Of a stretch of DNA of 64,000 nucleotides, positions 31,667-46,758 are shown in pieces. The DNA is taken from the sequence record NC_048194.1. The stretch is one strand, 5' to 3'. How positions within the stretch are numbered: position 1 is the stretch's first letter; each line of letters starts with the position of its first letter. This DNA is from Escherichia phage vB_EcoM_WFH. The notes under the pieces were generated by a model. It saw only the letters and a program-made list of their open reading frames with translations. It was not told the origin of the DNA and did no database searches. Position numbers and translations under genes: made by a program.

Positions 31667-32641
31667 TTAAAAATACTCCATATCGGTAATATCACGGAAG
31701 CACTTATACAAGGCAGAGCGCGGCACGTCAACTATGCCAAAGTTAAAGAATTTATATGTCAAATACTTGTTTCGATAATTCTCGCGATTCTCCCAAAGCA
31801 TTTTTCTCTCTGCCATAGGCATTGAACCAGCGGAGACGCGGAAGGGAATCATTTCACCTTTCTCATCAACATATTTTGGATTGACAACCACAAATGATCC
31901 AAGGTATCCTTTTGCAACTAAGCCTTCAGCCTCTTTCGAACGCTTAGTGCGACCCAACTCATCAATGAATGCTTCGTTGTTATTCTCCATCATCTCAACG
32001 AAGTCTATGATCAGTCCTTCTTCATCGGTCCACGGCTTGTCCTTCCACACATCACGTGACTTTGGCGTCGCGCGGCCATGCTTGTATTTGCCCGTCCAAG
32101 ACTTGCCATACAAGCCTTCATAGCCAAGCTGGTCTGCTTCGATTTGCATCGCCGCGTACTGTTCCATATTTTCGATGTTTCGATATTCGAGAGCGCGAAG
32201 GAATGGGCGTCGACCATGGTTGATGAGGTGCTGATTGACTTCAGCAACTCTAGCGCGATAGTTTGCATAACGCTTTTCAAAAGGCAAATCAGGGTCGCTG
32301 AAGTCATCAAACACCCACCATGTAAAGTTAGTGATTGCATCAGTGTTCATGCATGCAGTATAGGCCTGTTGCATGACGTTCTTGTCATTCGGATTACCGT
32401 CAATTAGCTCTCCATCAAGTCCGTGAATCAATTCACCCAAGAATAGGAACTCTTTTTTGATTTGAATGTTGCGCAGTGCCATGCCGGATGTGCCCATTGG
32501 CAAGTTGTCATACGCCATCGCGCGTATTCCATCGACCTTGAAGGATAATCCGCAAGGCAGCGGCACATCTTCGCCGCGCTCGATGATTTGTTTACGCTGG
32601 CAACCTTTCATTGGTTTTAATGCTTTGATTTCTCCTGCCAT
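31667..32641 (-). CDS. ATP-dependent DNA ligase
   Basis: ATG at 32641 overlapping upstream stop (track start is GTG one codon earlier); nucleotidyltransferase motif I KVDGIR near N-terminus, further DG/ELDGE-type motifs; size as T7-type ligases. Confidence 0.6.
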   Translation of the reverse strand: MAGEIKALKPMKGCQRKQIIERGEDVPLPCGLSFKVDGIRAMAYDNLPMGTSGMALRNIQIKKEFLFLGELIHGLDGELIDGNPNDKNVMQQAYTACMNTDAITNFTWWVFDDFSDPDLPFEKRYANYRARVAEVNQHLINHGRRPFLRALEYRNIENMEQYAAMQIEADQLGYEGLYGKSWTGKYKHGRATPKSRDVWKDKPWTDEEGLIIDFVEMMENNNEAFIDELGRTKRSKEAEGLVAKGYLGSFVVVNPKYVDEKGEMIPFRVSAGSMPMAERKMLWENRENYRNKYLTYKFFNFGIVDVPRSALYKCFRDITDMEYF

Positions 32642-33234
32642 CACTCAAACTCCTTATTCATCACTTGTTCCAGCGCATAGGCATAAGCCTGATCAGTCGA
32701 TTTAATAAACGTTCCGTTGTACATCACACCTTTACGGTCCTTGATGTCTTCATAGGCGGCTTGAGCGCAATCAGACAGTCGAAGTCCATAATCATGCGCT
32801 ACGCCGGAAAGATAATCGACTGCGGCCATGATAGTGACATCAATATCCATGCTTTGATTTTTAGCAATGGCGTCACCAAGCCGTCCGAGAGTCTTCGCCA
32901 AGCGAAGGATAAAGGAATGAGGGTGAGCGCCTTTGTCAGCGCAACCGCCTCCGTTGATGTCTTCGATTTTTGCACCATTTTGCGCGGCAAGAATAGTTAA
33001 CACAACAAGGCAATCACCGATGTCGTCCTTGATTGCGGCTTGCAAATCACAAATGGCCTGCTCTGTATATCCGATTTCAGGGTCAAAGAACACAAGGTCA
33101 TGGAGTTGATCCACGTGGTCGGTCAACTCCCCAAACTCGCTAATAAGCTTCGGGTATTGGTCTTTAAGGCCGCAACCTTTGATGATGTTACGGTCAGAAG
33201 CCCATTGGCGAATGTTTGCATAAATCTGGTTCAT
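32641..33234 (-). CDS. MazG-like nucleoside triphosphate pyrophosphohydrolase
   Basis: 197 aa; EFGELTDH ... DDIGDCLVVLTILAAQNGAKIED pattern matches MazG/HisE-type EExxE...D motifs. Confidence 0.5.
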   Translation of the reverse strand: MNQIYANIRQWASDRNIIKGCGLKDQYPKLISEFGELTDHVDQLHDLVFFDPEIGYTEQAICDLQAAIKDDIGDCLVVLTILAAQNGAKIEDINGGGCADKGAHPHSFILRLAKTLGRLGDAIAKNQSMDIDVTIMAAVDYLSGVAHDYGLRLSDCAQAAYEDIKDRKGVMYNGTFIKSTDQAYAYALEQVMNKEFE

Positions 33235-33806: not shown

Positions 33807-34667
33807 TTAAAACTCTTCTGCGTCGGTCGGAGTTTCATTGACAGGACCAGCGGCACCACTTGCTTCTTCCTGCTTGCTGCGGTCAATGTTAACGTTGCCG
33901 CCAACCACGTCGTTGTGGAATGCTTTGGCGACTTCGTACAGGCCTTTGTCCTGCACCAGACCTTCCAGCTCAAACTTCAGGACGGACCAGGTGTTGCCGT
34001 CTTTGGACTGAGACGCAGTACCCATGCGAACGATGTTCATGAAGGTCGGCGGCGTTTTCAGGCCCTGCGGAGTCTGAACTTTCTTCTGCTGCAGAGCGGT
34101 CATCAGCATGCGAGACGGCTTGATCATGGAAGAAGTCAGAGACAGCATTGCACTACCAAATTCACCAGTTTCTTCGTTCAACAGAATCACGAAGTGGTTA
34201 CGTGTATCTGCGTAGTAAGGTGATTTCTTCTCGTGCACCTTGCCGTTTTCGTCTGGCACAAACACCTTACCGTTGATCTCAACAGCGCGGCCTGCCGCGA
34301 CTTCTGCATCAACGTGCTCTTTGGTGAATTCACCTTTAAAGCCTTTATCGTCGGACTCGCGACCGCCCCAAAGGATGAAGGTGCGTTTGAATGCGCAAGG
34401 GATGATCTGCACGCCCTTCTTGCCGTCATACAATTCACCAGTAACGGTGTTGTACAGCATACCAGCTTTTGCGCCAGGAACGTGTTTTGGATCATCTTCG
34501 TCGACCATCGGAGACATCTTTTGCAGTACGACGATAAAAGGAATGGCATAAGCGTCGGCATCGGCACCTTCAAAACCAGCGCCAAAATCGGTCATATCGA
34601 CAAAATCAGCCATAGCGGACATCTGGGTGTTTTTTGCTGCAACTTCGGTAGTTTCTTTCTTAGACAT
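33807..34667 (-). CDS. single-stranded DNA-binding protein (T7 gp2.5-like)
   Basis: 286 aa; acidic C-terminal tail ending ...ETPTDAEEF (acidic tail with terminal Phe as in gp2.5-type SSBs); position in replication block. Confidence 0.45.
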   Translation of the reverse strand: MSKKETTEVAAKNTQMSAMADFVDMTDFGAGFEGADADAYAIPFIVVLQKMSPMVDEDDPKHVPGAKAGMLYNTVTGELYDGKKGVQIIPCAFKRTFILWGGRESDDKGFKGEFTKEHVDAEVAAGRAVEINGKVFVPDENGKVHEKKSPYYADTRNHFVILLNEETGEFGSAMLSLTSSMIKPSRMLMTALQQKKVQTPQGLKTPPTFMNIVRMGTASQSKDGNTWSVLKFELEGLVQDKGLYEVAKAFHNDVVGGNVNIDRSKQEEASGAAGPVNETPTDAEEF

Positions 34668-34726
34668 TTGGTGTTTTCCTATAGTATCAAGTTTCGTGGC
34701 AACCTGATTTCAAGATAAAGGTTAAA

Positions 34727-35284
34727 TTACTTTTTGCTTTTAGGCAAGGTTATTTTAGCTTCTTTATACTCAAAAACGCTAATATCTTCACTAACTGGAT
34801 TACCCGCTTCCAGCTGTTCTTTAACAAATGACTTCAGTGTAGCAGAATGAACGCCTTGTTTCAACGTGGCTTCAACACCGTCTTCACGCAGCGCGGCAAC
34901 AATCTCTTGCGCTTGCTCGATTTCTTCGCGACCGAACTCAGCCGTGACGCTGGACTTGATCAAGCCGCCGTAACCGTTGTTGACGAGCCAATCGAATACC
35001 TTCAATTCATTTTCTTTCTTGATTGAAGCATTTACTTTTGACTCGACCTTGATTTTGGTCTTGTCTTCAAGCTTGATTTCGGACACGCCAAGCTCATCCA
35101 TGACGCCAGGAAGCAGAACAGTTTTGATTTCACTGATGCGCTGCTTTTGCATATCAGCTTCATCTTCAAGCTCTGTCAAAGCTTCTTGGCGTTCTGCCAA
35201 TTCCGATACTAAGCGCGCAAGGCGCTCTTGAATGCTCTCAGGAGCGACCTGCGGCAAATCATCTTCCCAATTAATATTGCTCAT
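34727..35284 (-). CDS. hypothetical protein (185 aa, acidic, coiled-coil N-region)
   Basis: ATG overlapping upstream stop; no recognised motif. Confidence 0.4.
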   Translation of the reverse strand: MSNINWEDDLPQVAPESIQERLARLVSELAERQEALTELEDEADMQKQRISEIKTVLLPGVMDELGVSEIKLEDKTKIKVESKVNASIKKENELKVFDWLVNNGYGGLIKSSVTAEFGREEIEQAQEIVAALREDGVEATLKQGVHSATLKSFVKEQLEAGNPVSEDISVFEYKEAKITLPKSKK

Positions 35285-37142: not shown

Positions 37143-37561
37143 GACAATTCCTCTAAATACTTGATGATGTGATGAATAGTGCCCTTCACGATTATCTCAC
37201 GTTGAACGTCTGCAATATTATAACGCTTTAATTCAATCGAAGGGTGGACTAAATAAAACATCTTCTCAGAATCGACTTTAAGCAAAACAAATGATGGGTA
37301 TTTCCAATCATTCCACGAAGAAAGAAAGCTGCACTGACCTTTCTCAAATGCATTTCTGAAAGGTGCAGTGGTGGCCCTTGCAGGCCACGATTCAAAGAAC
37401 TTCATTTCAAGCCAAAAGCCGCGCCCTTTCCGGTTGGTGCCGATTACGTCCGGCACACCATCACCCGTCATTGATTCGATTCTTTGAAGCTTCAAGATTG
37501 ATTCTGAATGCTTCTTCAAAGGCACGAATATGTATTTCTGTTCACGGTTATTTGTTGCCAT
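37139..37561 (-). CDS. VRR-NUC domain nuclease
   Basis: 140 aa; GVPDVIG...GRGFWLEMK core resembles the VRR-NUC PD-(D/E)xK pattern; gene immediately precedes and overlaps the SNF2 helicase gene, a common pairing. Confidence 0.5.
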   Translation of the reverse strand: MATNNREQKYIFVPLKKHSESILKLQRIESMTGDGVPDVIGTNRKGRGFWLEMKFFESWPARATTAPFRNAFEKGQCSFLSSWNDWKYPSFVLLKVDSEKMFYLVHPSIELKRYNIADVQREIIVKGTIHHIIKYLEELS

Positions 37562-40445
37562 CTGGATACACCTGTTTGATCACGTCGACGATAAACATGT
37601 CAATACCTTCAAGCTTGCGGCCTTTCATCAGAAAGAATGCGCCGTTCCCGACGTTCTCTGCAATGTACTTACCGTATTTCTGGAACTTCTCTGGGCGAAT
37701 CCTGAAGCGCATTGGCGAGTCGGTCGAATCGTCCTTGCACATAAGGTCAATGAACTGAGTCTCAAGCTTGTTTCCATACTGGTCAAACTCTGCGTAGCGG
37801 CCATCAGCTTGAAGACCCTTTTTAAGTTTGCCGTGCTTTGTATAAATGCCGCGCTCAAGACGTTTACGGATGCGTGTCGCTTCGTTCTCGTCAGCCAGCA
37901 CTTTCTTGGTCAACTTGCCGATTACTATTGCACGCTCGTCATCGCCGACTTCCTTCATCTGGCGTATTGAAGCACCGGAAGTAACGCCAATCAGATAGGG
38001 GTCATTATACGCCCAGCCAAACTTGGTGTGCATCTCTGTAAGGTCGCCGTATTTGACTTCAGCATTGGCCAATGCATCCTTTTGTTTTTGCGTTAAGGTT
38101 CCGGCTTCACGCGCTTCGATGTACTTCATCGCCTTCACCATTCCGTACCCTTTGGCGTTCATTATGCCGCCGATTAGCTTTCCGTTAGCGATGGTCCAGT
38201 TCATTGAAGAGTGATCAGGGTCGATTGGCACATAATCCACGCCTTCCTTTGCAAGTTCACGTAATATCGCAATCGTCTGGTCTTCGTCCTTAGCAGCGCG
38301 TAAGCAAGCAGCGGCAAATTCCAACGGGTAGTGTCGTTTAAGCCACAAGGTCCAGTAAGTCACGACCGCGTATGACACGGAGTGTGACTTGTTAAAGCCC
38401 CATGACCCGAACGTCGCCATCGCCTGCCAAAGCTTTCTTGCATCCGCTTCCGGTACGCCGTTATTTATTGCGCCTGCAACGAAGTCTTCGCCAAGCTTGT
38501 TAAAGTATTCCTCACCCTTACGACCTGACATCGCCTTACGCACAGCTGACGTTTTCGCCCAGTCGAATGAACCAATCTCTTTAACCACGGCCATGATTTG
38601 CTCTTGGTAAAGAAACACGCCATAAGTCTCTTTTAAGTACGGCTCAAGCTGCGGCACGTCGTACTCAATCGGCGCACGTCCTGCCGCGCGTTCAATGTAT
38701 TTCTGGGCCATACCGGACGACAACGGGCCAGGTCGGCCAAGTGCTGTCAGGTTATCGATTTTGTTAAAGTTATCAACGTGCACAAAGTTGGTCACTGAGC
38801 GTACAGCGTCGCCTTCAAACTGGAAGATGCCTGACATCTTGTTTTCGTTAAGGATGTCAAGGACGCTTTGGTCATCAAGCTTGATTCCGTACAGCGTTTC
38901 AGCATCTATCACGCCAGTATCAGAAATGATTCCGAGGGTGCGAAGACCCAATGCATCAAGCTTCAAAAGGTTAAGGTATTCGCTGTCAGGCTTATCAATT
39001 TGTGCAATCCCTTCCGCCGTTACCGTACAGTAATCAGAGATTGGGTCATTACAAACGATGATTCCCGCTGCGTGAACGCCAGTGTGGGAAGGGTGAATCT
39101 CAAGGTCACCCATGCATCGCGCGGCATCGGGATATTTAGCCACAAACTCTTGGCCCGTGGTCGTTGTTGCAAAGGTGTCCTCCAGGCCGTGGCCATAACG
39201 GGCGTCACCGGATGAGTATTCAAGCAATGCGTTTTTAATGTTGGCCGTTTCGTGATATCCAATGTTGAATTTCTTACCAACCTGAGCCATTACTGAGTTG
39301 GCCTTAAGCGTGTTGATGTTGCCAAGTTTTGCAACGTTCATTTCGCCGTATTTTTCTTTAAGGTAATCAAAAACCATATAGCGTTTGGTATCCTCAAAGT
39401 CAATATCAATATCAGGAAGGTCTGCGCGGCTTACGTCAATGAATCGGGCAAACAGTAGCTTATACGGGATTGGGTCAACCTCCGTGATGCCGAGGCAATA
39501 ACAAACCAGTGAACCAGCCGATGAGCCGCGAGCGGGTCCGACGAGCATTTTTGTTTTTGCGAATCGTACAAGGTCCGCTACCACCAGAAAGTATGAGTCG
39601 AAATCTTTCAGCTGAATCTGGTGAATCTCTTCGTTGAATCGGTCCTCATATTCCTGAGTCCATTCTTTGATGTGACCTGCCTTAAGGCGGTACTCCATCC
39701 CCTCACGAGCAAGCTTTACCATGTCACCAGCAAGGTGGATAATCGGTGCCTTGCGCAGCTTCAGGTCAAGCCCAACGATTCCATTTGCAATATCAACCGC
39801 ATTGGCCGTTGCTTGATTCAACTCGTCTTCGGTCAGGATTCCTTTAAGCTGTTTGCGCAAGTCTTCCGCGTCAACGATGCAGTGCGGCTTAACCGTGTCT
39901 CGAACTTCCCATGCATAAGCAAAGTCAACGTGCTCAGGTGAAGGCATGTGGTTGTATCCGGTTAAAACCAGCGGCCTTCCGTTGCTGCGGTGAGCCAATA
40001 CCTGGCGCTTGGCCAAAAGGAACGATGATGGGTTGACGTCTATATAATCATAGTCCTCTGGCCGCAGCAGCTCCACGGCCCCGCCACAGAATTTAACGAC
40101 GCCATCGAGCGCCCCGAACTCTGCACGGGTCAGTCCGCCGCGCTGTGTTGCAAGCGTGGTCGCGTTGTAAAAGGATTTCAGGTCAAGCGCCAATATCCAA
40201 GCCTTCGGTTTGAATCCCTTTTTCGGGTCCGCATCAGGGTCAATGATTGGAATCTCCATACCGAACATAGGCTTGATATCATTCTTCTGACATTCCTTTT
40301 CCCATCGAACGTGACCCCATGTATTGTTATCAACTAATGCCGCGACTTCGCAGCCCAACTCTTTGAGCCGTGCTATAATTTCAGGATGCCGTCCATATAC
40401 TTCTTTGAACGTGTAACCGCTGCGAACTCTCAATTGTGGAAACAT
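37548..40445 (-). CDS. dnaE: DNA polymerase III alpha subunit (DnaE-type replicative polymerase)
   Basis: 965 aa; N-terminal PHP-domain pattern; hallmark motif GFNKSHSVSYAVVTYWTLWLKRHYPLEFAAACL matching DnaE palm region. Confidence 0.9.
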   Translation of the reverse strand: MFPQLRVRSGYTFKEVYGRHPEIIARLKELGCEVAALVDNNTWGHVRWEKECQKNDIKPMFGMEIPIIDPDADPKKGFKPKAWILALDLKSFYNATTLATQRGGLTRAEFGALDGVVKFCGGAVELLRPEDYDYIDVNPSSFLLAKRQVLAHRSNGRPLVLTGYNHMPSPEHVDFAYAWEVRDTVKPHCIVDAEDLRKQLKGILTEDELNQATANAVDIANGIVGLDLKLRKAPIIHLAGDMVKLAREGMEYRLKAGHIKEWTQEYEDRFNEEIHQIQLKDFDSYFLVVADLVRFAKTKMLVGPARGSSAGSLVCYCLGITEVDPIPYKLLFARFIDVSRADLPDIDIDFEDTKRYMVFDYLKEKYGEMNVAKLGNINTLKANSVMAQVGKKFNIGYHETANIKNALLEYSSGDARYGHGLEDTFATTTTGQEFVAKYPDAARCMGDLEIHPSHTGVHAAGIIVCNDPISDYCTVTAEGIAQIDKPDSEYLNLLKLDALGLRTLGIISDTGVIDAETLYGIKLDDQSVLDILNENKMSGIFQFEGDAVRSVTNFVHVDNFNKIDNLTALGRPGPLSSGMAQKYIERAAGRAPIEYDVPQLEPYLKETYGVFLYQEQIMAVVKEIGSFDWAKTSAVRKAMSGRKGEEYFNKLGEDFVAGAINNGVPEADARKLWQAMATFGSWGFNKSHSVSYAVVTYWTLWLKRHYPLEFAAACLRAAKDEDQTIAILRELAKEGVDYVPIDPDHSSMNWTIANGKLIGGIMNAKGYGMVKAMKYIEAREAGTLTQKQKDALANAEVKYGDLTEMHTKFGWAYNDPYLIGVTSGASIRQMKEVGDDERAIVIGKLTKKVLADENEATRIRKRLERGIYTKHGKLKKGLQADGRYAEFDQYGNKLETQFIDLMCKDDSTDSPMRFRIRPEKFQKYGKYIAENVGNGAFFLMKGRKLEGIDMFIVDVIKQVYPDGNK

Positions 40446-40987
40446 TATTTACTCCAGATGTCATATACGCCAATTTGTTGGCAGACTTTGTGCAGTAATA
40501 TTACGTCGTCTAATGCACGGTGTTTCTGTTCATATTTTCCGAAATATAATTCATACAGCTCTTGAAGCTTAACTCTTCGGCCAAAAATAGGCAAGGTTTG
40601 CTCGACTGTACAAATGTTTATTTCTGGAAAATTAACATCACCAAGTGTAAGACCTTCGCGCTGTAGTGCATAATCAAGAATGTTCTTATCGAACGCATGG
40701 TTGTGCGCGATAGTTGCATCAGTCTTCTTGAAGATTTCTTTTAGCTGCGGAACGAAATTGATGAATGGTGGATTGCACTCAAGGTCTTCATTTGTTAATC
40801 CGGTAATCTTTGTGATGATTTCTTCAATCACAATTTCAGGATTAATTATGAACTCGAAAGTTTCAAGAATCTCTTTTCCATCCGTCAACAGGCCTGCAAA
40901 TTCAATAGGGCGCGGCTGCATCCCAAGCGGCGCTTTCGGGTGCACGGTTAATCCGGTTGTTTCGAAGTCATAAGGGAGAAATAACAC
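40445..40987 (-). CDS. DnaQ-like 3'-5' exonuclease (DEDD family)
   Basis: 180 aa, GTG start with RBS aggagg; Exo I motif YDFETTGL; gene directly upstream of dnaE. Confidence 0.75.
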   Translation of the reverse strand: MLFLPYDFETTGLTVHPKAPLGMQPRPIEFAGLLTDGKEILETFEFIINPEIVIEEIITKITGLTNEDLECNPPFINFVPQLKEIFKKTDATIAHNHAFDKNILDYALQREGLTLGDVNFPEINICTVEQTLPIFGRRVKLQELYELYFGKYEQKHRALDDVILLHKVCQQIGVYDIWSK

Positions 40988-40998
40988 ATTAGCCTCCT

Positions 40999-41025
40999 AC
41001 AAAAAGGCCGCCCATTAGGACGGCC
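40999..41025 (-). terminator. intrinsic terminator downstream of the enzyme cassette
   Basis: GGCCG..CGGCC stem; on minus strand followed by TTTTTGT. Confidence 0.45.
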
Positions 41026-41041
41026 ACAGATTCACGATTCG

Positions 41042-41593
41042 TTATACAGTGTACGGAGTACCGTCTTGATTCAACCGCACGATGAACTTAAGGTCGACAC
41101 CAATGATTTCACGCGTATCAAAGATCACATAGTTGTAACGACGCTGACCAGCAATGTTTGGGTTGGTGTGAGAGTCGGTCACAACTTCCTGCGCAACCTG
41201 AATGCCTTCTTCTTTAAAGAACTTGCGCCATTCAGCAAGTTCAGCGGCAGTCACGTGCATACCAAGATGGCTAACCTGATTGTCGTGCGCATCGATGTAT
41301 TCGATGTTTTCGTGAATCCAGTTGCAACCTTTTGTATAGTCAAGAATTTCAAGCTCAAGAGGCTTACCAGCTCCGCCATCGGTGCCGTTGCCAGCCTGAT
41401 AGTTGAAGCGCAAGTCAGCTTCGTTGGTGCAATCGCCGCGCTGACCCTTAAAGACATCAGCTTCAAATACGCGACCAGTAGCAACAACGTGATCATGGAA
41501 CCATTCTGTCAGGCCGATTTTAGCCAGGAAATTCTGTGCGCGCTGAGCACCTGGAATTGACAGGGCGATTTGTTCAATTTTAAAATGTGGCAT
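41042..41593 (-). CDS. VOC (glyoxalase/bleomycin-resistance-like) family protein, putative
   Basis: 183 aa; two-module hydrophobic beta-alpha-beta pattern (KIEQIALSIP...FLAKIGL and VSHLGMHVT...EEGIQV) suggestive of VOC fold; weak. Confidence 0.3.
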   Translation of the reverse strand: MPHFKIEQIALSIPGAQRAQNFLAKIGLTEWFHDHVVATGRVFEADVFKGQRGDCTNEADLRFNYQAGNGTDGGAGKPLELEILDYTKGCNWIHENIEYIDAHDNQVSHLGMHVTAAELAEWRKFFKEEGIQVAQEVVTDSHTNPNIAGQRRYNYVIFDTREIIGVDLKFIVRLNQDGTPYTV

Positions 41594-41683
41594 TTTGTTT
41601 CCTTAATTAAATATTATTGATTAATTACTGTGTTGTCTTCGTCCTGTTTTTCAGGAGCAGCGACAACTTCAAATGTTCTTGAT

Positions 41684-42367
41684 TTATTTACCAAATGGAA
41701 TATCAGTACCAGACATAAAGCGCCATGCGCCCGTAATTAAGATATGGCGAATGAAGTCAGCAATTACTTGCGGCTCAGTCTCCAATCCATTCATCAGCGC
41801 CTTTTTCTGGTATTCAGCAGCATACTCAGGAGTCCAGCCGCGAGTCGCGCAAACAGCATCTTCAATCTGTTTGGACATGCCAGTACCACGTAGCTTGTTA
41901 GGACTAATAGAGAATACCGTGATCCCGTATTTAGGCGTAAGCTCGTGAGCCATCTGCTTGCTAATCATGAGCGCAGCAGCCTTGGAAGCATTATAACACA
42001 AGCTGGACGTCATAGGAATATGCGCAGCGTTGGAAACGATGTTGATCACAAAACCTTTGTTGTCAATAAGACTTTTCAGCGCGGCCTGAGTCGTGTTGAC
42101 GAAAGAGAAGGCGTTGGTGTGCATAACGCGATTGAACTCTTCGTAGTTAACATCTTCGAACCAGTTGTTGGAGTTGACGCCAGCGCAGTTGATCAAGCCT
42201 TCTACGTCGTATTGAGAGAGAAGCTCTTTCATCTGTTTCGCGTTACGGATGTCATAGCCGTTCTCCAAATCAATACCGACAACTTCATGACCGTAAGCGC
42301 CAAGGGTGTCAAAAATGGATTTACCAAGACCGGAATTGCAGCCAGTTACAACAATTACTTTTTTCAT
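41684..42367 (-). CDS. short-chain dehydrogenase/reductase (classical SDR)
   Basis: 227 aa; Rossmann motif VTGCNSGLG, NCAG, catalytic Y-x3-K (YNASKAA). Confidence 0.85.
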   Translation of the reverse strand: MKKVIVVTGCNSGLGKSIFDTLGAYGHEVVGIDLENGYDIRNAKQMKELLSQYDVEGLINCAGVNSNNWFEDVNYEEFNRVMHTNAFSFVNTTQAALKSLIDNKGFVINIVSNAAHIPMTSSLCYNASKAAALMISKQMAHELTPKYGITVFSISPNKLRGTGMSKQIEDAVCATRGWTPEYAAEYQKKALMNGLETEPQVIADFIRHILITGAWRFMSGTDIPFGK

Positions 42368-42432
42368 TTATTTATCCTTTTTGGACTTCGTTTCGATGAG
42401 ATAAATATAACTCATCGAAACGCACAAGTAAA

Positions 42433-43305
42433 CTATTTATTGAAATTAATATTATGGGTGTTGACAAGACGTTCACACATGGCGCTGTAAACACCATCAT
42501 CGTGTATTGAGTCTTCGTGCTTCAGGCCGCTGATTGCGAAGCGTGTAAGCTTGACAATCTTAAGCTCGAACAGATGCCACATGTGGTAGTCTTCCGGCGT
42601 TTTCAACGTCACGCCATTAGGGAAAAGCACCTGCATAACCTGACCTACCATCACAGCGTTATCGCCATAGACAGCGTTGCGCTCACGGAAGGTTGCTGCC
42701 ATCGCATCAAGAATATCGGCGGCAGTTGCCGGAGATTGTTCAACTTCCACAGCCTTAGTCTCTTCTTGCCCTGTTGCACTTGGATCAATTGCTAATTGTT
42801 GCACCACTTCACCTGCCTTGCAAAGATTAAATGTAAAAGCGATTTTATTTTGAGCAACGGAATTATAATACAATGCTTCATCTTGCATCCGCGCGAGTAC
42901 GTCTTGTCGGTCGTCGAATACATTGATGATTCGATAATCGCCGTGCCGCAATGCGTGCGACAGCCATGCAGATTTCATAATAGTTGATGGACGTTTGTCG
43001 CCATAGTCTCTCATCTTGATTGTAAATTCATCAAAAGGGAAAACATTGTCCAGACGTTCAAAAGTCACTTGTCTGTATTTTTCTGGCCTTGCAGTCCAAT
43101 ATTCAACCGCCTCACCGCGAAGAGATGCCGACTCTACTGCTGATGCAATGTGAGGATAGAACTGATCATAACCAATACCGCTGTGATAATCATCATAGTC
43201 TGACAACGGACCTGCCACCTTGATGCGGTCTAAGCGCCAACGGTCATCAAACAGCGTTCCGTCAAGGTCGAATACGTTTAAGATTTCGCTGTTTTTAATG
43301 CTCAT
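42433..43305 (-). CDS. HAD-superfamily phosphatase fused to a C-terminal domain of unknown function
   Basis: 290 aa; HAD motif I FDLDGTLFDD at N-terminus; C-terminal ~120 aa unrelated. Confidence 0.55.
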   Translation of the reverse strand: MSIKNSEILNVFDLDGTLFDDRWRLDRIKVAGPLSDYDDYHSGIGYDQFYPHIASAVESASLRGEAVEYWTARPEKYRQVTFERLDNVFPFDEFTIKMRDYGDKRPSTIMKSAWLSHALRHGDYRIINVFDDRQDVLARMQDEALYYNSVAQNKIAFTFNLCKAGEVVQQLAIDPSATGQEETKAVEVEQSPATAADILDAMAATFRERNAVYGDNAVMVGQVMQVLFPNGVTLKTPEDYHMWHLFELKIVKLTRFAISGLKHEDSIHDDGVYSAMCERLVNTHNINFNK

Positions 43306-44105
43306 CCTTTTGATACTCCATCTTTAGCAACTGGATTGTTGGTGATTGGCATCGCACTCCAAAACTGGATGCGCAACTCTTCTTGCTGTGCCGTGGTATC
43401 CATCCAATCACGATACCAAGGGCAATGGGCTTTACCGTGACGAGGAAATGCGCACTTACCCATACCAATGCATTGCGGCTGCAGTAATGGATTCGCCCAA
43501 GGGTGCACCTTGAGGACTTCCGCAACCATTGCGCGGAATACTTCTTGATACTCTCCTTGCGTGCGCGTGCACAAGCGGTTTGACGCCATCTGCTGCAGCG
43601 TGCGCAAGTTGAACTTTGCCATGATATGCGTTTGCATATTAGAAGGCAACACGGCACGTGCATCTTGAATCTCTGCGCCAGCCGCGCGAAGCTCTTGATA
43701 CAAAGCGTCGATAGTCGCCATCGCATCATCCCACTTCTCTGCCAGTTCAGCTGCCTTCTCGTCATGGCGAGTCCATCCCTTTGGATCATCCTCTGGGTAA
43801 GTGAATTTAGCAGGACGAATCGCATCAAATGCAGACGACTCCTGAGCGCGGCTGGTGCGTTCTTGATATGCGCCTGTGCGTGTGCGTACCATCTGATGGG
43901 TCATGTTCTTTGATACAGCTGTGATATCAAAGATATAGTCCACAAAGTCAAAAGGCGACTTGATTGTATCAAGCATGTAGCGCCAATGCTCTTGCTTCTC
44001 TGATTCCGTCATCTCAGAGACAGGCTTACCAGTCATGCGCGTGTTCTTTGTTTCCAGCAAAAGGTCAAGTGCATCTTGGGTGTATCGAATTAATTCAACT
44101 TTCAT
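43302..44105 (-). CDS. ThyX-like (flavin-dependent thymidylate synthase family) protein with non-canonical motif
   Basis: 267 aa; segment QMVRTRTGAYQERTSR aligns to ThyX RHR-x7-S signature but with Thr in place of His; Cys/His cluster near C-terminus (CIGMGKCAFPRHGKAHCPWY). Confidence 0.5.
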   Translation of the reverse strand: MKVELIRYTQDALDLLLETKNTRMTGKPVSEMTESEKQEHWRYMLDTIKSPFDFVDYIFDITAVSKNMTHQMVRTRTGAYQERTSRAQESSAFDAIRPAKFTYPEDDPKGWTRHDEKAAELAEKWDDAMATIDALYQELRAAGAEIQDARAVLPSNMQTHIMAKFNLRTLQQMASNRLCTRTQGEYQEVFRAMVAEVLKVHPWANPLLQPQCIGMGKCAFPRHGKAHCPWYRDWMDTTAQQEELRIQFWSAMPITNNPVAKDGVSKG

Positions 44106-44118
44106 TTTAATTGTCCTA

Positions 44119-44565
44119 TTAACGGTAATTCACTAGTTGCTGATCACCAGAGAAGGTGCAATGATAAACGAATTGTGCGTTATAAAGCAACTGAAAACTT
44201 TTCTTTGGTTCATTATTAGAACTCATTGATGTAAAGATTTCTGCACCAGAACGGTTTTCACCAATCAGATTGATAAAGCCGCCAGTTGAACGAGGTTGAA
44301 CGAAAGTGAAACGTTGCATCCACGGAGTCCGGTTGACACCTTTTCCGGTGAATCCTTGAATCTGAATATTCAGACCTTCTTGCTCATTCACACCGATGTA
44401 AGTGGTAATCTTCGCACCAGTCGTTGCTGCGGTCTTACCGTCCATCGCTTCGCAATCGTAAACAGCGATTGAATCGGAAGTACGGATGGCGGCTTCAGTC
44501 GCTTCCATATACATGGTGCCGAGAATAGCAGTTGCGGCAAGCGCGATTCCAGTGATTCGTTTCAT
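44119..44565 (-). CDS. secreted protein with signal peptide (148 aa)
   Basis: MKRITGIALAATAILGTMYMEA... N-terminal signal-peptide-like sequence. Confidence 0.45.
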   Translation of the reverse strand: MKRITGIALAATAILGTMYMEATEAAIRTSDSIAVYDCEAMDGKTAATTGAKITTYIGVNEQEGLNIQIQGFTGKGVNRTPWMQRFTFVQPRSTGGFINLIGENRSGAEIFTSMSSNNEPKKSFQLLYNAQFVYHCTFSGDQQLVNYR

Positions 44566-44585
44566 TTTCGTTTCCTCTATGAGTT

Positions 44586-44622
44586 CTGCTTCAATGATTA
44601 AAGTATACGCCCATTGAAGCAG
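44586..44622 (-). other. intergenic stem-loop (11-bp inverted repeat CTGCTTCAATG / CATTGAAGCAG)
   Basis: Between FAD-oxidoreductase stop and next gene's RBS; possible processing or regulatory hairpin. Confidence 0.35.
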
Positions 44623-44630
44623 AAAGCAAA

Positions 44631-45626
44631 TTATTTATTAGCAATATAAGCAAATTTTTGATAGTTATTTGCTTTGATGAGTTTTTCGACTTCAACAAGG
44701 TCATGAGCGACGTCATCAAGCAAGATATTGCGCCAGGTCGCGAATCGACCGACACTAAACACGTTTAAATCCATAGTCAGCTGCAGGAGTAGGGCGTGTC
44801 GCAAGTCTTTCGGAATGTCGACAATCTTGCCATATTTCTGGTCGACCTTTTCAACTTCTTCAAGAGCAATGTCACTCCATGAAAGGCCAAAGGCCGTCAA
44901 CACTTCGTCGACTTCTGCGCGCAGCTTCATGTCACGGTAACGAGTGATGCCGCCTGCGGCTTCAACTGCAGCTTCACTCACGCTGACCAAAGGAATTGTT
45001 TCAATGATAAGCGTGTCACCAGTAATTGATGCGCGGTAAGTTCTGACGGAGTAGTCAGGGAAGTAAATTGTCTGATACAAATCACACTTACGTTTAATCT
45101 TAAAGCGGTAAACGCGAATGTTTGCTTTATCAAATGAGAAATCAAGCTTTTGATCAATTCCAGCAAGCTTCATCATGACTGGCAGCGGCGACGTGTTGAT
45201 GATTGGCGTCTCGCTATAGCCGCAAAGAGTATCAACCGGAGTATTAAAGAATATGCGGTCACCCAGTTTGTCGACAAGCTGATCATAAAAGTCATCAGGC
45301 GCAATATAACGCGTTGCAGTCTTAAGCTTCATGATTGAACGGCTGCCAAATTGATTGGTGACCTTCATGGAATACATATTGGCAAGGTTGATTGGGCAAT
45401 GGTCGTGATAGTAGTTGCCGCGAAAATACACAGCCTTGTCAACTGTCACGGCCTTAAAAGGGATTCCGGTAATACGGCTTACTTCTTCGCCGCGAAAGCG
45501 TAGCAGCGCCTTGTGCTGTTGCGCTCGTTCCCCTGCTTCGTACACAATAGAGTTCGGGAAGTGACACGCGGTGATAAGTCCTGCCAATCCGCCGCCGATA
45601 ATCATTACAGGTTGTTTCATGTTCAT
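44631..45626 (-). CDS. FAD/NAD(P)-binding oxidoreductase
   Basis: 331 aa; N-terminal dinucleotide-binding fold MIIGGGLAGLITA; C-terminal GRFATWRN...DD reminiscent of flavoenzymes such as UDP-galactopyranose mutase or amine oxidases. Confidence 0.55.
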   Translation of the reverse strand: MNMKQPVMIIGGGLAGLITACHFPNSIVYEAGERAQQHKALLRFRGEEVSRITGIPFKAVTVDKAVYFRGNYYHDHCPINLANMYSMKVTNQFGSRSIMKLKTATRYIAPDDFYDQLVDKLGDRIFFNTPVDTLCGYSETPIINTSPLPVMMKLAGIDQKLDFSFDKANIRVYRFKIKRKCDLYQTIYFPDYSVRTYRASITGDTLIIETIPLVSVSEAAVEAAGGITRYRDMKLRAEVDEVLTAFGLSWSDIALEEVEKVDQKYGKIVDIPKDLRHALLLQLTMDLNVFSVGRFATWRNILLDDVAHDLVEVEKLIKANNYQKFAYIANK

Positions 45627-45711
45627 TTGTCCTTTGTGGGTGATATGAGAAGTATAATAGCTAAATTATTTTACAGCAACAAGTCATTTTATTTAGTACA
45701 GATGAAAAAAA

Positions 45712-45732
45712 GACCCACAACAAGTGTGGGTC
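45712..45732 (-). terminator. intrinsic terminator (GACCCACA-n5-TGTGGGTC)
   Basis: On minus strand the 8-bp stem is followed by TTTTTTTCATC; directly downstream of the K/A/E-rich gene. Confidence 0.65.
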
Positions 45733-45759: not shown

Positions 45760-46599
45760 TTATTCCGCTTGATCACCGTCTTCGGCATCTTCGTTGGGTT
45801 CAACATCGACAAACTCGATGTGGCCCATCTCTTCCAGCTTGCTCAGGTAGGAGCGAACGGAAGCGCCAAACAGTTGATCTTTAACTTTTTCGCCCAGCTC
45901 ATCGATAGACTGCGCCACGCCAACTTCGCCTTCTTTGATCGCCGCCAGAACGCGTCCACGGGTGGAATGCTCTTGCGGCTGGCTCAGGCCATTGCCAGTG
46001 TAGATGAAGTGAGTAGCTTTTGCACGACGTTGACCGTTTGCCTTTTTAGCGGCCTTACGTTCTGCGATGGCTTTGCGACGTTCTTCAGCTTCTTTCTTAC
46101 GCTGTTCTTTCTGTTGTTCTGCAGCTTCTTTCGCCGCAATCTTAGCAGCTTCACGCTCTGCCTTGCGTTTCGCTTTAGCTTCTTCTTTGGCCTTCTCTTT
46201 TTCGGCCTTCGCTGCAGCACGGGCTTGATCACGCTCTGCTTTCTTAGCAGCAGCTTGTTCAGCTTTCAGGCGCTTGGCTTCTTCTTTAGCCTTTGCCTTT
46301 TCGATTTCTTTTGCTGCTTTAGCGGCTTCACGCTCTGCTTTCTTAGCAGCAGCCTTTTCTGCACGCTCTTTAGCTTTCTTAGCTGCTTCTTCAGCACGCT
46401 TCTGAGCCTTCTCATCAGCAGCCTGCTTGCGTTTCAGGGCAGCTTCTTCACGCTTGGCTTGTTTTTCCTGCTCACGCTTCTGGCGTTTTTCTTCGGCTTC
46501 TTTCTTTTTAGCCAGACGTTTTTCTTCAGCCACGCGACGGCGTTCTGCTGCAGCTGCTTGCTTTTCTTCTTTAGATAATACTTTGATTGCTTCGGCCAT
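45760..46599 (-). CDS. K/A/E/R-rich coiled-coil protein with C-terminal globular domain
   Basis: ATG at 46599 (track start is GTG two codons earlier); ~200 aa of low-complexity charged helix (AEEKRQKREQEKQAKREEAALKRK...), then ~80-aa domain (..GRVLAAIKEGEVGVAQSIDELGEKVKDQLFGASVRSYLSKLEEMGHIEF..). Confidence 0.6.
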   Translation of the reverse strand: MAEAIKVLSKEEKQAAAAERRRVAEEKRLAKKKEAEEKRQKREQEKQAKREEAALKRKQAADEKAQKRAEEAAKKAKERAEKAAAKKAEREAAKAAKEIEKAKAKEEAKRLKAEQAAAKKAERDQARAAAKAEKEKAKEEAKAKRKAEREAAKIAAKEAAEQQKEQRKKEAEERRKAIAERKAAKKANGQRRAKATHFIYTGNGLSQPQEHSTRGRVLAAIKEGEVGVAQSIDELGEKVKDQLFGASVRSYLSKLEEMGHIEFVDVEPNEDAEDGDQAE

Positions 46600-46758
46600 A
46601 TTCACAGTCCTTAAATAAATTAGTTTATTTTATATTCCCCTTTTGGGATAACTTAATTATGCCTTCAGTCGCCGCCAGTAGCAACTAAAAACTCTGGCGG
46701 CAATGCCACTTTAATTAAACTGATTTTCAGTTTTATTTTTCGTAAATTTACGTCAACA

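What the first reader, a model, noticed from the sequence alone, without database searches (positions are those of the whole stretch)
41042..45626. Terminator-bounded enzyme cassette inside the replication block: possible nucleotide or DNA modification pathway
Six co-directional minus-strand genes are bounded by an intrinsic terminator at about 41.0 kb and a promoter-like region plus the terminator of the next unit at about 45.65-45.73 kb. They encode a VOC-like protein, a classical SDR (TGxxxGxG, NCAG, YxxxK), a HAD phosphatase fused to an extra C-terminal domain, a ThyX-like protein with a variant signature, a secreted protein with a signal peptide, and an FAD-binding oxidoreductase with a C-terminal GRFATWR motif. 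None is needed for replication itself, yet the cassette sits between the DnaQ/DnaE genes and the helicase genes. Oxidoreductases, a phosphatase and a thymidylate-synthase homologue together are what one would expect for a base or sugar modification route (many phage DNA hypermodification systems are built on thymidylate-synthase homologues plus tailoring enzymes), but this particular combination is not one I can assign to a described pathway.
Basis: inference. Interest (0 to 1): 0.7.

Follow-up and report, generated by a model that had tools for sequence, protein, structure and literature searches.

The report
Candidate thymidine-hypermodification genes in Wifcevirus
This block of phage enzyme genes is the E. 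coli-phage version of a widely conserved module (an unusual ThyX-like enzyme, a new flavoprotein, a phosphatase and two tailoring enzymes, always next to the phage DNA polymerase). It is the best available candidate for making the sugar-decorated thymine recently found in related Pseudomonas phages, and for the unexplained restriction resistance of these coliphages.

Summary
The window is a Wifcevirus myophage (99.9% to Shigella phage CWP003/WFH).

The six genes are not one evolutionary unit:
- **Core:** a UGM/PPO-fold flavoprotein (no Pfam family), a divergent ThyX-like protein, and a HAD phosphatase with DUF6378. In 44/44 metagenomic phage loci with enough flank, these lie collinear and upstream of DnaQ-DnaE. 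Pbunavirus, a Cronobacter podophage and Rhizobium jumbo phages carry them too.
- **Accessory pair:** SDR+VOC, in about 70% of loci but not in Pbunavirus.
- **Insertion:** the secreted protein, found only in Wifcevirus.

The linked ThyX-likes keep every dUMP-binding Arg/Gln but have replaced His53, His59, His79, Tyr91 and His178.

Two papers supply context. Pbunavirus DNA carries sugar-like thymidine adducts (362/390 Da) with no genes assigned. Wifcevirus phages plate normally on EcoRI/EcoRV hosts despite 38 and 8 sites, "without any known protection mechanism". No other enzyme-like candidate gene is annotated in the genome.

I conclude, with moderate confidence, that this is a thymidine-hypermodification module. 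The chemistry is unproven. The main rival is ordinary dTMP supply and nucleotide-pool housekeeping.

The parts
41006..41025 (-). Intrinsic-terminator-like hairpin (8 bp, 7 G-C) + UUUUU, 3' of the block, 18 nt before the DnaQ GTG start
   Evidence: -17.4 kcal/mol, z -3.3; annotated as a terminator in phage Mansfield
41042..41593 (-). VOC (glyoxalase/dioxygenase)-superfamily-like protein, 183 aa; accessory gene paired with the SDR
   Evidence: Glyoxalase_4 E=0.09 here; 11/15 family members hit it (best 2.2e-5). Invariant Q8, E80, E82, H109, H113, H142. Present in Serratia, Xanthomonas, Pantoea, Aeromonas and Microbacterium phages, absent from Pbunavirus
41684..42367 (-). Classical short-chain dehydrogenase/reductase, 227 aa (TGCNSGLG, NCAG, YNASK); no specific subfamily
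   Evidence: adh_short 1e-31; below every NCBIfam cutoff; motifs; co-distributed with the VOC gene
42781..43305 (-). HAD phosphatase domain (residues 1-175) of the 290-aa fusion protein; DLDGT nucleophile motif and invariant D13, D15, T71, K111, D131, D132
   Evidence: HAD_PNKP 33.5 bits > 27.6 cutoff. AF2 pLDDT 90. Closest solved folds are class B acid phosphatase AphA/VSP and the T4 Pnkp/Pnkp1 3'-phosphatases. Invariants
42451..42732 (-). DUF6378 domain (residues ~192-285) of the same protein; predicted four-helix bundle; a separate ~95-aa ORF in about 20 related loci
   Evidence: PF19905 in 15/17 members; stand-alone ORFs; helices 195-213, 216-227, 237-258, 264-280; a MazG-like gene takes the place of DUF6378 in the DnaE-proximal cassette of Microbacterium phage DannyDe
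43302..44105 (-). Divergent ThyX-like flavoenzyme, 267 aa (RTR instead of RHR; C-terminal 4-Cys extension)
   Evidence: Thy1 105.9 bits; TIGR02170 81.8 < 87.9 cutoff; residue table; Cys pattern
44119..44565 (-). 148-aa protein with an N-terminal signal-peptide-like segment; Wifcevirus-specific insertion, not part of the conserved module
   Evidence: homologues in only 27 Wifcevirus records; 3/44 loci; no Pfam, PHROG or NCBIfam hit
44631..45626 (-). 331-aa FAD-type Rossmann flavoprotein of UGM/protoporphyrinogen-oxidase fold (PHROG 4828, no Pfam); obligate neighbour of the ThyX-like gene
45654..45682 (-). Weak sigma-70-like promoter candidate TTGTTG-17-TATTAT upstream of the flavoprotein gene
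   Evidence: read from the sequence; 8/12 consensus matches, below the scan threshold
45712..45732 (-). Intrinsic-terminator-like hairpin + U7 ending the upstream TolA-like gene unit
   Evidence: -13.3 kcal/mol, z -3.45; annotated in Mansfield
37548..40987 (-). DnaQ-like exonuclease (40445-40987) and DnaE-type polymerase (37548-40445): invariant downstream syntenic partners of the module
   Evidence: 43/44 loci

Best explanation
The block is the Wifcevirus version of a conserved, DnaE-polymerase-linked nucleotide-modification module. It most likely produces a C5-substituted, sugar- or polyol-bearing deoxyuridine that partly replaces thymidine in virion DNA and protects it from restriction.

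Shown:
- Module architecture and conservation.
- Fold and family of each protein.
- The altered active site of the ThyX-like enzyme.
- Strict pairing of the ThyX-like enzyme with the flavoprotein.

From the literature:
- Pbunavirus, which shares only the core genes, has thymidine adducts of 362 and 390 Da at TG.
- Wifcevirus is resistant to restriction-modification (RM) systems without a known mechanism.

Inferred mechanism:
1. The ThyX-like enzyme still binds dUMP, because Q75, R78, R80, R90, R147 and R174 are all kept. It uses reduced-flavin N5-iminium chemistry to place a carbon substituent on C5.
2. Because His53, His59, His79, His178 and Tyr91 are replaced, it does not finish as ordinary dTMP synthesis. 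Either it releases a 5-hydroxymethyl or trapped exocyclic-methylene product, or it accepts a different carbon donor.
3. The UGM-fold flavoprotein is its obligate partner. It either supplies or redox-processes the sugar/polyol moiety (UGM itself forms flavin-N5-sugar adducts) or carries out the oxidative coupling.
4. The HAD phosphatase removes a phosphate from the sugar-phosphate side chain or from a competing dNMP. DUF6378, a four-helix bundle found where a relative has MazG, acts on (d)NTPs.
5. SDR and VOC tailor the side chain in the lineages that carry them, so Wifcevirus should carry a different final adduct from Pbunavirus.
6. The co-inherited DnaE/DnaQ polymerase tolerates the modified nucleotide.
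For: 1. Synteny. Flavoprotein, then ThyX-like, HAD, DUF6378, optionally SDR and VOC, then DnaQ and DnaE, all on one strand, in 44/44 IMG/VR loci with at least 7 kb of flank. Counts: ThyX 44, DUF6378 43, HAD 42, SDR 31, VOC 32.
2. The same core occurs in unrelated phages. In Cronobacter podophage Ss1 the flavoprotein gene overlaps the ThyX gene. Rhizobium jumbo phage TM2_3B has it too.
3. Actinophages with DnaE carry analogous sets of oxidoreductase, NT5C-type HAD, SDR, VOC, DUF6378 or MazG, and ThyX-like.
4. In 72 distinct linked ThyX-likes: H53->I 72/72, H59->F 72/72, H79->T/S/N 71/72, Y91->A/V 70/72, H178->R 72/72. All six dUMP-contact residues are kept 72/72. The protein scores below the NCBIfam thyX equivalog cutoff.
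5. Pbunavirus F8 and 14-1 DNA contains thymidine derivatives of 362 and 390 Da replacing about a quarter of T at TG, and that paper never mentions thymidylate synthase or ThyX.
6. Bas99 has 38 EcoRI, 8 EcoRV and 92 EcoCFT_II sites yet an efficiency of plating (EOP) of about 1. The authors state that no known protection mechanism exists.
7. The full ManiWeber annotation shows no methyltransferase, glycosyltransferase or kinase. The only other enzyme-like non-replication gene is a MazG-like protein.
8. Between F8 and 14-1, which carry different adducts, the HAD-DUF6378 protein (80% identity), the neighbouring small ORFs (78-82%) and ThyX (94%) are more diverged than the flanking genes (97-100%).
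9. Mass arithmetic (my own): dT + tetritol - 2H = dU + 1-deoxypentitol-1-yl = 362.3, and dT + pentose - 2H = 390.3. The adducts therefore equal one oxidative or reductive coupling of a C4/C5 sugar unit to the C5 carbon. This fits flavin chemistry without a kinase or transferase.
Against: - No nucleoside analysis exists for any Wifcevirus.
- TG-context, 25% substitution in Pbunavirus implies a DNA-level, sequence-selective step. None of these proteins has a recognisable DNA-binding or base-flipping domain, and the ThyX-like keeps a mononucleotide site.
- F8 DNA is cut by EcoRI while Wifcevirus resists it, so the two modifications (if both exist) differ in sequence context.
- The ThyX-like could still be a working thymidylate synthase. 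It passes the Pfam cutoff and misses the NCBIfam cutoff by only 6 bits.
- The UGM similarity is at fold level only. hhalign against E. coli Glf finds just the GxGxxG region, and protoporphyrinogen and amine oxidases score nearly as high.
- A nucleotidase-like role for DUF6378 rests on gene position and helix count, not homology.
- The module is found in many phages for which no modification is known.
Confidence: 0.5

Rival explanations
1. Ordinary nucleotide supply and pool housekeeping. The ThyX-like protein is a bona fide, merely divergent, flavin-dependent thymidylate synthase that boosts dTMP for very fast replication. HAD-DUF6378 is a nucleotide-pool sanitiser or polynucleotide 3'-phosphatase. 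The flavoprotein is an accessory reductase or folate/flavin-recycling partner. SDR and VOC are auxiliary metabolic genes. Restriction resistance and the Pbunavirus adducts arise from other, still unrecognised genes.
For: - Full-length Thy1 match of 105.9 bits, with all dUMP-binding arginines kept.
- Location among replication genes, next to the polymerase.
- The HAD domain resembles nucleotidases and Pnkp phosphatases, and the actinophage counterpart passes the NT5C cutoff.
- Wifcevirus phages are reported to replicate extremely fast.
- Many phages encode ThyX purely for dTMP supply (established knowledge).
Against: - Canonical ThyX needs no partner protein, yet this subfamily is linked to the flavoprotein in 44/44 loci.
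- Five conserved flavin/folate-site residues are replaced in essentially all members.
- The protein falls below the thyX equivalog cutoff.
- This reading leaves the SDR+VOC pair, the Pbunavirus adducts and EcoRI/EcoRV resistance without any candidate genes.
Confidence: 0.3
2. DNA-level oxidative route. The UGM/PPO-fold flavoprotein acts on polymerised DNA. It abstracts hydride from the thymine methyl group in a specific sequence context, the reverse of the last ThyX step. This gives an exocyclic methylene that is trapped by a sugar or polyol hydroxyl. The ThyX-like and HAD-DUF6378 proteins only manage the dTMP/dUMP pools.
For: - It explains context-specific, partial replacement of T and the absence of hydroxymethylase, kinase and transferase genes.
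- The adduct masses equal T + polyol/sugar - 2H (my arithmetic).
- A flavoprotein acting on modified bases within DNA has precedent in PaMx11 gp47.
- The flavoprotein is mildly basic, pI 8.5, with many invariant Arg/Lys.
Against: - No flavoenzyme is known to oxidise the thymine methyl group.
- No DNA-binding domain is detected.
- It does not explain why the flavoprotein is tied to an altered ThyX rather than to any ThyX.
- The fold evidence does not discriminate between substrates.
Confidence: 0.12
3. Cell-envelope or sugar-nucleotide remodelling. A UGM-like mutase, an SDR, a phosphatase and a secreted protein alter host O-antigen/LPS sugars (for example galactofuranose in O16) for superinfection exclusion or receptor masking.
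For: - Phage Mansfield annotates the flavoprotein as UDP-galactopyranose mutase, from HHpred against 1I8T.
- Wifcevirus Bas98-101 use O16 O-antigen, whose K-12 gene cluster encodes the mutase Glf and the galactofuranosyltransferase WbbI.
- A signal-peptide protein lies in the block.
Against: - The module is conserved in phages of Pseudomonas, Xanthomonas, Rhizobium, Cronobacter and Actinobacteria, which have unrelated envelopes, and it always sits next to DnaQ/DnaE and a ThyX-like gene.
- The secreted protein is absent outside Wifcevirus.
- There is no glycosyltransferase or nucleotidyltransferase.
- There is no sequence-level match to Glf beyond GxGxxG.
- These are virulent phages.
Confidence: 0.05

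Closest known systems
Thymidine hypermodification pathways of phages M6, ViI, PaMx11, phiW-14 and SP10 (Lee et al. 2018/2021; PMC8989533)
   Same: A thymidylate-synthase homologue is the entry point. Tailoring oxidoreductases are clustered with replication genes. The outcome in relatives is a bulky group on the thymine C5-methyl carbon, with partial, context-dependent replacement of T. A flavoprotein is among the tailoring enzymes (PaMx11 gp47).
   Different: Those systems use a ThyA-family dUMP hydroxymethylase, a P-loop 5-hmdU DNA kinase and an aGPT-Pplase amino-acid:DNA transferase. None of these is annotated or detected here. Here the TS homologue is ThyX-family, the flavoprotein has a UGM/PPO fold rather than an MnmC-like one, and the appended group in relatives is a sugar or polyol, not an amino acid.
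Canonical flavin-dependent thymidylate synthase ThyX (T. maritima TM0449; PDB 1O26 family)
   Same: Thy1 domain over its full length. Q75, R78, R80, E86, R90, R147 and R174 equivalents are present in this protein.
   Different: RHR becomes RTR. H53->I, H59->F, S88->T, Y91->A and H178->R. The protein scores below the TIGR02170 cutoff. It has a C-terminal 4-Cys extension and is obligately linked to a second flavoprotein.
UDP-galactopyranose mutase (Glf/UGM)
Canonical-nucleotide exclusion enzymes of modified-DNA phages (SPO1/PBS2 dTTPase and dTMPase, T4 dCTPase, S-2L DatZ/MazZ)
   Same: A phosphatase of nucleotidase type plus a small all-helical domain sit beside a TS homologue and the phage polymerase. 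A MazG-like gene takes the place of DUF6378 in the cassette of one relative.
   Different: No catalytic activity or homology of DUF6378 to MazG could be shown. In Pbunavirus only about a quarter of T is replaced, so full exclusion of dTTP is not expected.
Pbunavirus thymidine adducts (F8 362 Da, 14-1 390 Da; bioRxiv 10.1101/2025.03.31.646159)
   Same: Distantly related phages share the flavoprotein (39% identity), the ThyX-like (about 49%) and HAD-DUF6378 in the same order next to DnaQ/DnaE.
   Different: Pbunavirus lacks SDR, VOC and the secreted protein. F8 DNA is EcoRI-sensitive, whereas Wifcevirus is EcoRI-resistant in vivo. The biosynthetic genes are unassigned in that study.

Membership tests
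ThyX (flavin-dependent thymidylate synthase) | Pfam Thy1 (PF02511) domain above the gathering score | tested here: met
   105.9 bits vs 24.8, profile positions 2-191 of 191
ThyX (flavin-dependent thymidylate synthase) | NCBIfam equivalog TIGR02170 at or above its curated cutoff | tested here: not met
   81.8 bits < 87.9
ThyX (flavin-dependent thymidylate synthase) | ThyX signature RHRx7S (established knowledge: Myllykallio et al. 2002) | tested here: not met
   The sequence reads RTRTGAYQERT. The middle His is T/S/N in 71/72 linked homologues, and the Ser position is T in 54/72
ThyX (flavin-dependent thymidylate synthase) | dUMP-contact residues (Tm Q75, R78, R80, R90, R147, R174) | tested here: met
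   All conserved 72/72
ThyX (flavin-dependent thymidylate synthase) | Converts dUMP + CH2-THF + NADPH to dTMP | not testable with these tools
   Needs an enzyme assay or thyA complementation
UDP-galactopyranose mutase | Sequence membership (Pfam GLF, or a profile match to Glf) | tested here: not met
   No Pfam family at E<=0.1. hhalign of the 60-sequence profile against E. coli Glf aligns only residues 4-23, probability 4%
UDP-galactopyranose mutase | UGM fold as the closest structural neighbour | tested here: met
UDP-galactopyranose mutase | Genomic association with galactofuranosyl- or other glycosyltransferases | tested here: not met
   No glycosyltransferase in the annotated Wifcevirus genome. 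The neighbours are ThyX-like and DnaE
Classical SDR | TGxxxGxG cofactor motif, NNAG-type motif, catalytic YxxxK | tested here: met
   TGCNSGLG (8), NCAG (60), YNASK (125); adh_short 110 bits
HAD phosphatase | DxDx(T/V) nucleophile motif, motif II T/S, motif III K, motif IV DD | tested here: met
   DLDGT at 13. Invariant T71, K111, D131 and D132 across 56 homologues. HAD_PNKP 33.5 > 27.6
VOC (glyoxalase/bleomycin-resistance/dioxygenase) superfamily | Pfam Glyoxalase-type domain above cutoff | tested here: inconclusive
   13.5 bits < 27 for this protein. 11/15 relatives hit Glyoxalase_4 (best 2.2e-5). The profile finds no solved relative
5-hmdU-based thymidine hypermodification system (Lee et al.) | ThyA-type dUMP hydroxymethylase, 5-hmdU DNA kinase and aGPT-Pplase transferase | tested here: not met
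   None is annotated in Mansfield or ManiWeber, and none was found among the ten larger unassigned ORFs scanned against Pfam and PHROGs
MazG-like all-alpha NTP pyrophosphatase (for DUF6378) | Detectable homology to MazG/PRA-PH families | tested here: inconclusive
   The only family hit is PF19905 DUF6378. hhalign against the phage's own MazG-like protein is negative. The four-helix bundle prediction and the replacement of DUF6378 by a MazG-like gene in the DannyDe cassette are only suggestive

The most novel reading that the evidence does not exclude
A ThyX-family enzyme with a rebuilt flavin/folate pocket, working with a previously undescribed UGM-fold flavoprotein family (more than 1,100 clusters at 50% identity, no Pfam entry), forms a new flavin-dependent route that attaches a sugar or polyol carbon chain to C5 of deoxyuridine. 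These would be the missing biosynthetic genes for the Pbunavirus thymidine adducts. They would also be the cause of Wifcevirus restriction resistance, and the module would mark hidden DNA hypermodification across DnaE-encoding phages of Proteobacteria and Actinobacteria, including widely used therapeutic phages.
Probability: 0.35. Interest if true: 0.9.

Novelty: new variant of a known kind. Interest (0 to 1): 0.75.

Why it matters
Two recent papers each leave an explicit gap. Pbunavirus therapeutic phages carry a sugar-like thymidine hypermodification whose genes are unknown. Wifcevirus coliphages resist restriction "without any known genome protection mechanism". This analysis links both gaps to one conserved gene set, which can be tested by knock-out, LC-MS and enzyme assays.

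If the link is confirmed, several things follow:
- It would be the first DNA-hypermodification pathway built on a ThyX (rather than ThyA) homologue.
- A large orphan flavoprotein family and DUF6378 would gain a function.
- It would give a genomic marker for predicting hypermodified DNA in hundreds of phage genomes. That bears on sequencing artefacts, on sensitivity to END-type nucleases and on phage-therapy host range.

If it is refuted, the module is still an unusually tightly conserved nucleotide-metabolism partner of phage DnaE polymerases, and that would need its own explanation.

Tried and rejected
- **Flavoprotein against PDB by sequence or profile:** only the GxGxxG region matches weakly. 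Structure prediction was needed.
- **hhalign of the flavoprotein profile against E. coli Glf:** N-terminus only, so I do not file it as a UGM.
- **DUF6378 profile:** no hit against PDB, the phage's own MazG-like protein, or the DUF3310 protein of Cronobacter phage Ss1. The MazG-like reading stays an inference.
- **VOC profile against PDB:** nothing.
- **Foldseek of the whole HAD-DUF6378 model:** returned only HAD-domain matches, so the fold of the C-terminal domain was not placed.
- **Homologue of the Pbunavirus anti-END1 (14-1 gp88) in the window,** as indirect evidence of hypermodified DNA: none.
- **Published restriction digests or nucleoside data for Wifcevirus** (WFC/WFH, vB_Eco4M-7, ECML-117, FEC19): none found.
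- **F8 vs 14-1 comparison to pin the sugar-determining gene:** divergence is concentrated in ORF057-061 and ORF070, but it is spread evenly along HAD-DUF6378, and ORF070 has no recognisable family. Suggestive, not decisive.
- **HMM search linking the actinophage 'oxidoreductases' to this flavoprotein family:** only weak matches (13 bits) in collinear motifs. I treat the homology as probable, not shown.
- **Promoter/terminator scan:** no enrichment over shuffles.
- **O-antigen remodelling reading (Galf in O16):** considered and rejected because of the host range of the module and the lack of transferases.

Full report
**Identity of the window.** The 41.0-45.8 kb stretch is 99.9% identical to Shigella phage CWP003 and Wifcevirus WFH. 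It is 93-98% identical to 25 other Wifcevirus myophages of E. coli/Shigella. Public annotations of the six genes range from 'hypothetical' to 'glyoxylase family', 'FabG-like reductase', 'polynucleotide kinase/phosphorylase', 'thymidylate synthase' and 'UDP-galactopyranose mutase'.

**Check of the observation.** The six minus-strand ORFs are at the stated coordinates, and the quoted motifs are present.
- Pfam supports the SDR (adh_short 1e-31), the HAD phosphatase (HAD_PNKP, above cutoff) and ThyX (Thy1 3e-30).
- The VOC call is weak for this protein but recurs in its family.
- The secreted protein and the FAD protein have no Pfam or NCBIfam family.
- Both flanking hairpins are stable and followed by U-runs: -17.4 and -13.3 kcal/mol, z about -3.4, with no shuffle out of 200 as good. 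Both are annotated as terminators in phage Mansfield.
- The candidate promoter (TTGTTG-17-TATTAT, 45682-45654) is weak.

**The block is layered, not a unit.** tblastn against 50,697 phage genomes gives very different distributions for the six proteins.
- The flavoprotein occurs in 360 records. These include all Pbunavirus (about 39% identity), Serratia, Xanthomonas and Pantoea phages, the unrelated Cronobacter podophage Ss1 and Rhizobium jumbo phages.
- The ThyX-like protein follows the same set and extends to actinophages.
- VOC and SDR occur together in Wifcevirus and in Serratia, Xanthomonas, Pantoea, Aeromonas and Microbacterium phages, but not in Pbunavirus.
- The secreted protein occurs only in the 27 Wifcevirus records.

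A profile scan of IMG/VR returned 80 loci. In the 44 with at least 7 kb downstream of the flavoprotein gene, the counts were ThyX-like 44, DUF6378 43, HAD 42, DnaQ 43, DnaE 43, SDR 31, VOC 32 and secreted protein 3. All 44 are collinear on one strand. Two architectures dominate: all five enzymes (31 loci) and core only (11 loci).

The 'extra C-terminal domain' of the HAD protein is DUF6378 (PF19905, 15/17 members). It is a free-standing protein of about 95 aa in roughly 20 loci.

**The individual proteins.**

*ThyX-like.* I aligned 72 distinct flavoprotein-linked sequences to T. maritima ThyX. All keep Q75, R78, R80, R90, R147 and R174. They replace H53 (I, 72/72), H59 (F, 72/72), H79 (T/S/N, 71/72), Y91 (A/V, 70/72) and H178 (R, 72/72). 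S88 is T in 54. The protein is just under the NCBIfam thyX equivalog cutoff (81.8 vs 87.9). From my recollection of the T. maritima literature, not tested here, H53 stacks on the folate pterin, and H79 and H178 contact FAD. Half of the subfamily, including this protein, has a co-varying 4-Cys set.

*HAD-DUF6378.* The model is confident (pLDDT 90.2), and the C-terminal domain is a four-helix bundle. The HAD domain is closest to class B acid phosphatase/nucleotidase AphA and to the T4 Pnkp/Pnkp1 3'-phosphatases.

*SDR.* A generic classical SDR.

**Analogous sets in actinophages.**
- Microbacterium phage Sparcetus has oxidoreductase, HAD, SDR, VOC and DUF6378 directly before DnaE.
- Its congener DannyDe has oxidoreductase, a 439-aa ThyX-like protein and MazG at the same place.
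- Mycobacterium phage Helpful has oxidoreductase, NT5C-type HAD (above the Pfam cutoff), methyltransferase, SDR, DnaE and ThyX-like.

Their ThyX-likes also lack the RHR histidine and Tyr91. Their oxidoreductases share the N-terminal, middle and C-terminal motifs with the flavoprotein. The HMM support is weak, though (13 bits).

**Literature context.**
- Its tables give 38 EcoRI, 8 EcoRV, 92 EcoCFT_II and 89 EcoP1 sites for Bas99. Plaque counts are unchanged on EcoRI, EcoRV and EcoCFT_II hosts and abolished on EcoP1. This window has 15, 6 and 72 EcoRI, EcoRV and AGACC sites.
- The END-nuclease preprint shows that Pbunavirus F8 and 14-1 DNA resists enzymes with TG in their sites. It contains novel thymidine-derived nucleosides of 362 and 390 Da replacing about a quarter of T. 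These are interpreted as a tetrose sugar-alcohol derivative and a cyclised aldopentose derivative. The authors stress that such phages lack recognisable modification genes. The text never mentions thymidylate synthase or ThyX.
- No later paper in the library assigns the genes.

**Argument.** Resistance to type II enzymes at dozens of sites is most simply explained by DNA modification (established knowledge). The complete ManiWeber annotation and my scans show no methyltransferase, glycosyltransferase or kinase. The only enzyme-like non-replication genes are this block and a MazG-like protein.

The part of the block shared with Pbunavirus is exactly the flavoprotein/ThyX-like/HAD-DUF6378 core. 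Between F8 and 14-1, which differ in adduct, this neighbourhood is more diverged than its flanks: HAD-DUF6378 80%, adjacent small ORFs 78-82% and ThyX 94%, against 97-100%.

The adduct masses equal thymidine plus a C4 polyol or C5 sugar minus two hydrogens. Equivalently, they equal dU plus a 1-deoxypentitol-1-yl chain. That is one redox coupling at the C5 carbon, which is the chemistry flavin-dependent uracil alkylases perform (my arithmetic; mechanism background).

I therefore rank a thymidine-hypermodification module first (about 0.5). In this model the ThyX-like enzyme installs or activates the C5 carbon and the flavoprotein is its sugar/redox partner. HAD-DUF6378 handles phosphates, and SDR+VOC act as lineage-specific tailoring.

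**Weak points.**
- There are no chemical data for Wifcevirus.
- The TG-specific, partial substitution in Pbunavirus calls for a DNA-level, sequence-selective step that none of these proteins obviously provides.
- EcoRI cuts F8 DNA but does not restrict Wifcevirus, so the sequence contexts differ.
- The ThyX-like could still make dTMP.
- Fold similarity does not fix the flavoprotein's substrate.

The main rival (about 0.3) is plain dTMP supply with pool housekeeping. A DNA-level flavoprotein oxidation (about 0.12) and envelope-sugar remodelling (about 0.05) are less likely, for the reasons given under each rival.

**Verdict.** The composition needs correcting: core, accessory pair and genus-specific insertion. 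The reading 'insertion into the replication block' is wrong, because the module is an ancient partner of DnaQ/DnaE. If the model holds, this is a new variant of phage thymidine hypermodification, built on ThyX and a new flavoprotein family. It makes two explicitly open questions directly testable.

Noticed in passing
window 43302-44105 (ThyX-like residues C179, C212, C218, C228): Four cysteines co-vary perfectly. All four are present in 38 of 72 flavoprotein-linked ThyX-likes and all four are absent in the other 34. This suggests a clade-specific Zn or Fe-S site in the C-terminal extension.
   Followed up: partly
L002 2031-3227 (F8 ORF070) vs L088 13997-15301 (14-1 ORF70): These two Pbunavirus phages carry different thymidine adducts. 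This roughly 400-aa protein is only 56% identical between them, while neighbouring genes are 97-100% identical. It has no Pfam family (PHROG 5310, unknown function). It may determine the adduct or be an anti-defence gene.
   Followed up: partly
L005 3234-7094 (Sparcetus) vs L090 5521-9338 (DannyDe): Two Microbacterium phages of one genus carry alternative enzyme cassettes at the same DnaE-proximal locus: oxidoreductase+HAD+SDR+VOC+DUF6378 versus oxidoreductase+ThyX-like+MazG. In both, the cassette is preceded by a 181-aa protein with a weak T4-endoV-like 'Pyr_excise' DNA-glycosylase hit (E 0.0016 and 0.015).
   Followed up: partly
window 44119-44565: A 148-aa protein with a signal-peptide-like N-terminus is inserted between the flavoprotein and ThyX-like genes. 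It is found only in Wifcevirus and has no detectable family. It looks like a moron, perhaps acting in the periplasm or in exclusion.
   Followed up: partly
window 45760-46605: The upstream 'TolA-like' gene encodes a 281-aa Lys/Glu/Ala-rich protein (pI 9.6) and causes a strong local AT-skew (-0.375 at 46-47 kb). Only its C-terminal roughly 160 aa are conserved with Pbunavirus ORF066. It is syntenic with the module only in PB1-like phages.
   Followed up: no
window 41006-41025 and 40987: The strong terminator at the 3' end of the block lies only 18 nt upstream of the DnaQ GTG start and its GGAGG RBS. DnaQ/DnaE expression must therefore depend on read-through or on an unrecognised promoter.
   Followed up: no
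window 41594-41683: Mansfield and ManiWeber carry a small extra ORF (72 and 56 aa) between the VOC and SDR genes. Here the gap is only 90 nt and holds no ORF.
   Followed up: no
window 32641-33234: A separate MazG-like pyrophosphatase (PHROG 1992, 5e-63) lies 8 kb away in the same replication block, next to the DNA ligase. It is a possible further nucleotide-pool component of the same pathway.
   Followed up: no
window 33807-35284: Two conserved proteins of unknown function (Pam3 gp34-like PF23977, 4e-86; DUF7307/Pam3 gp33-like, 2.6e-37) sit between the helicase and the lysis genes. They are the largest unassigned conserved proteins left in the replication block.
   Followed up: no
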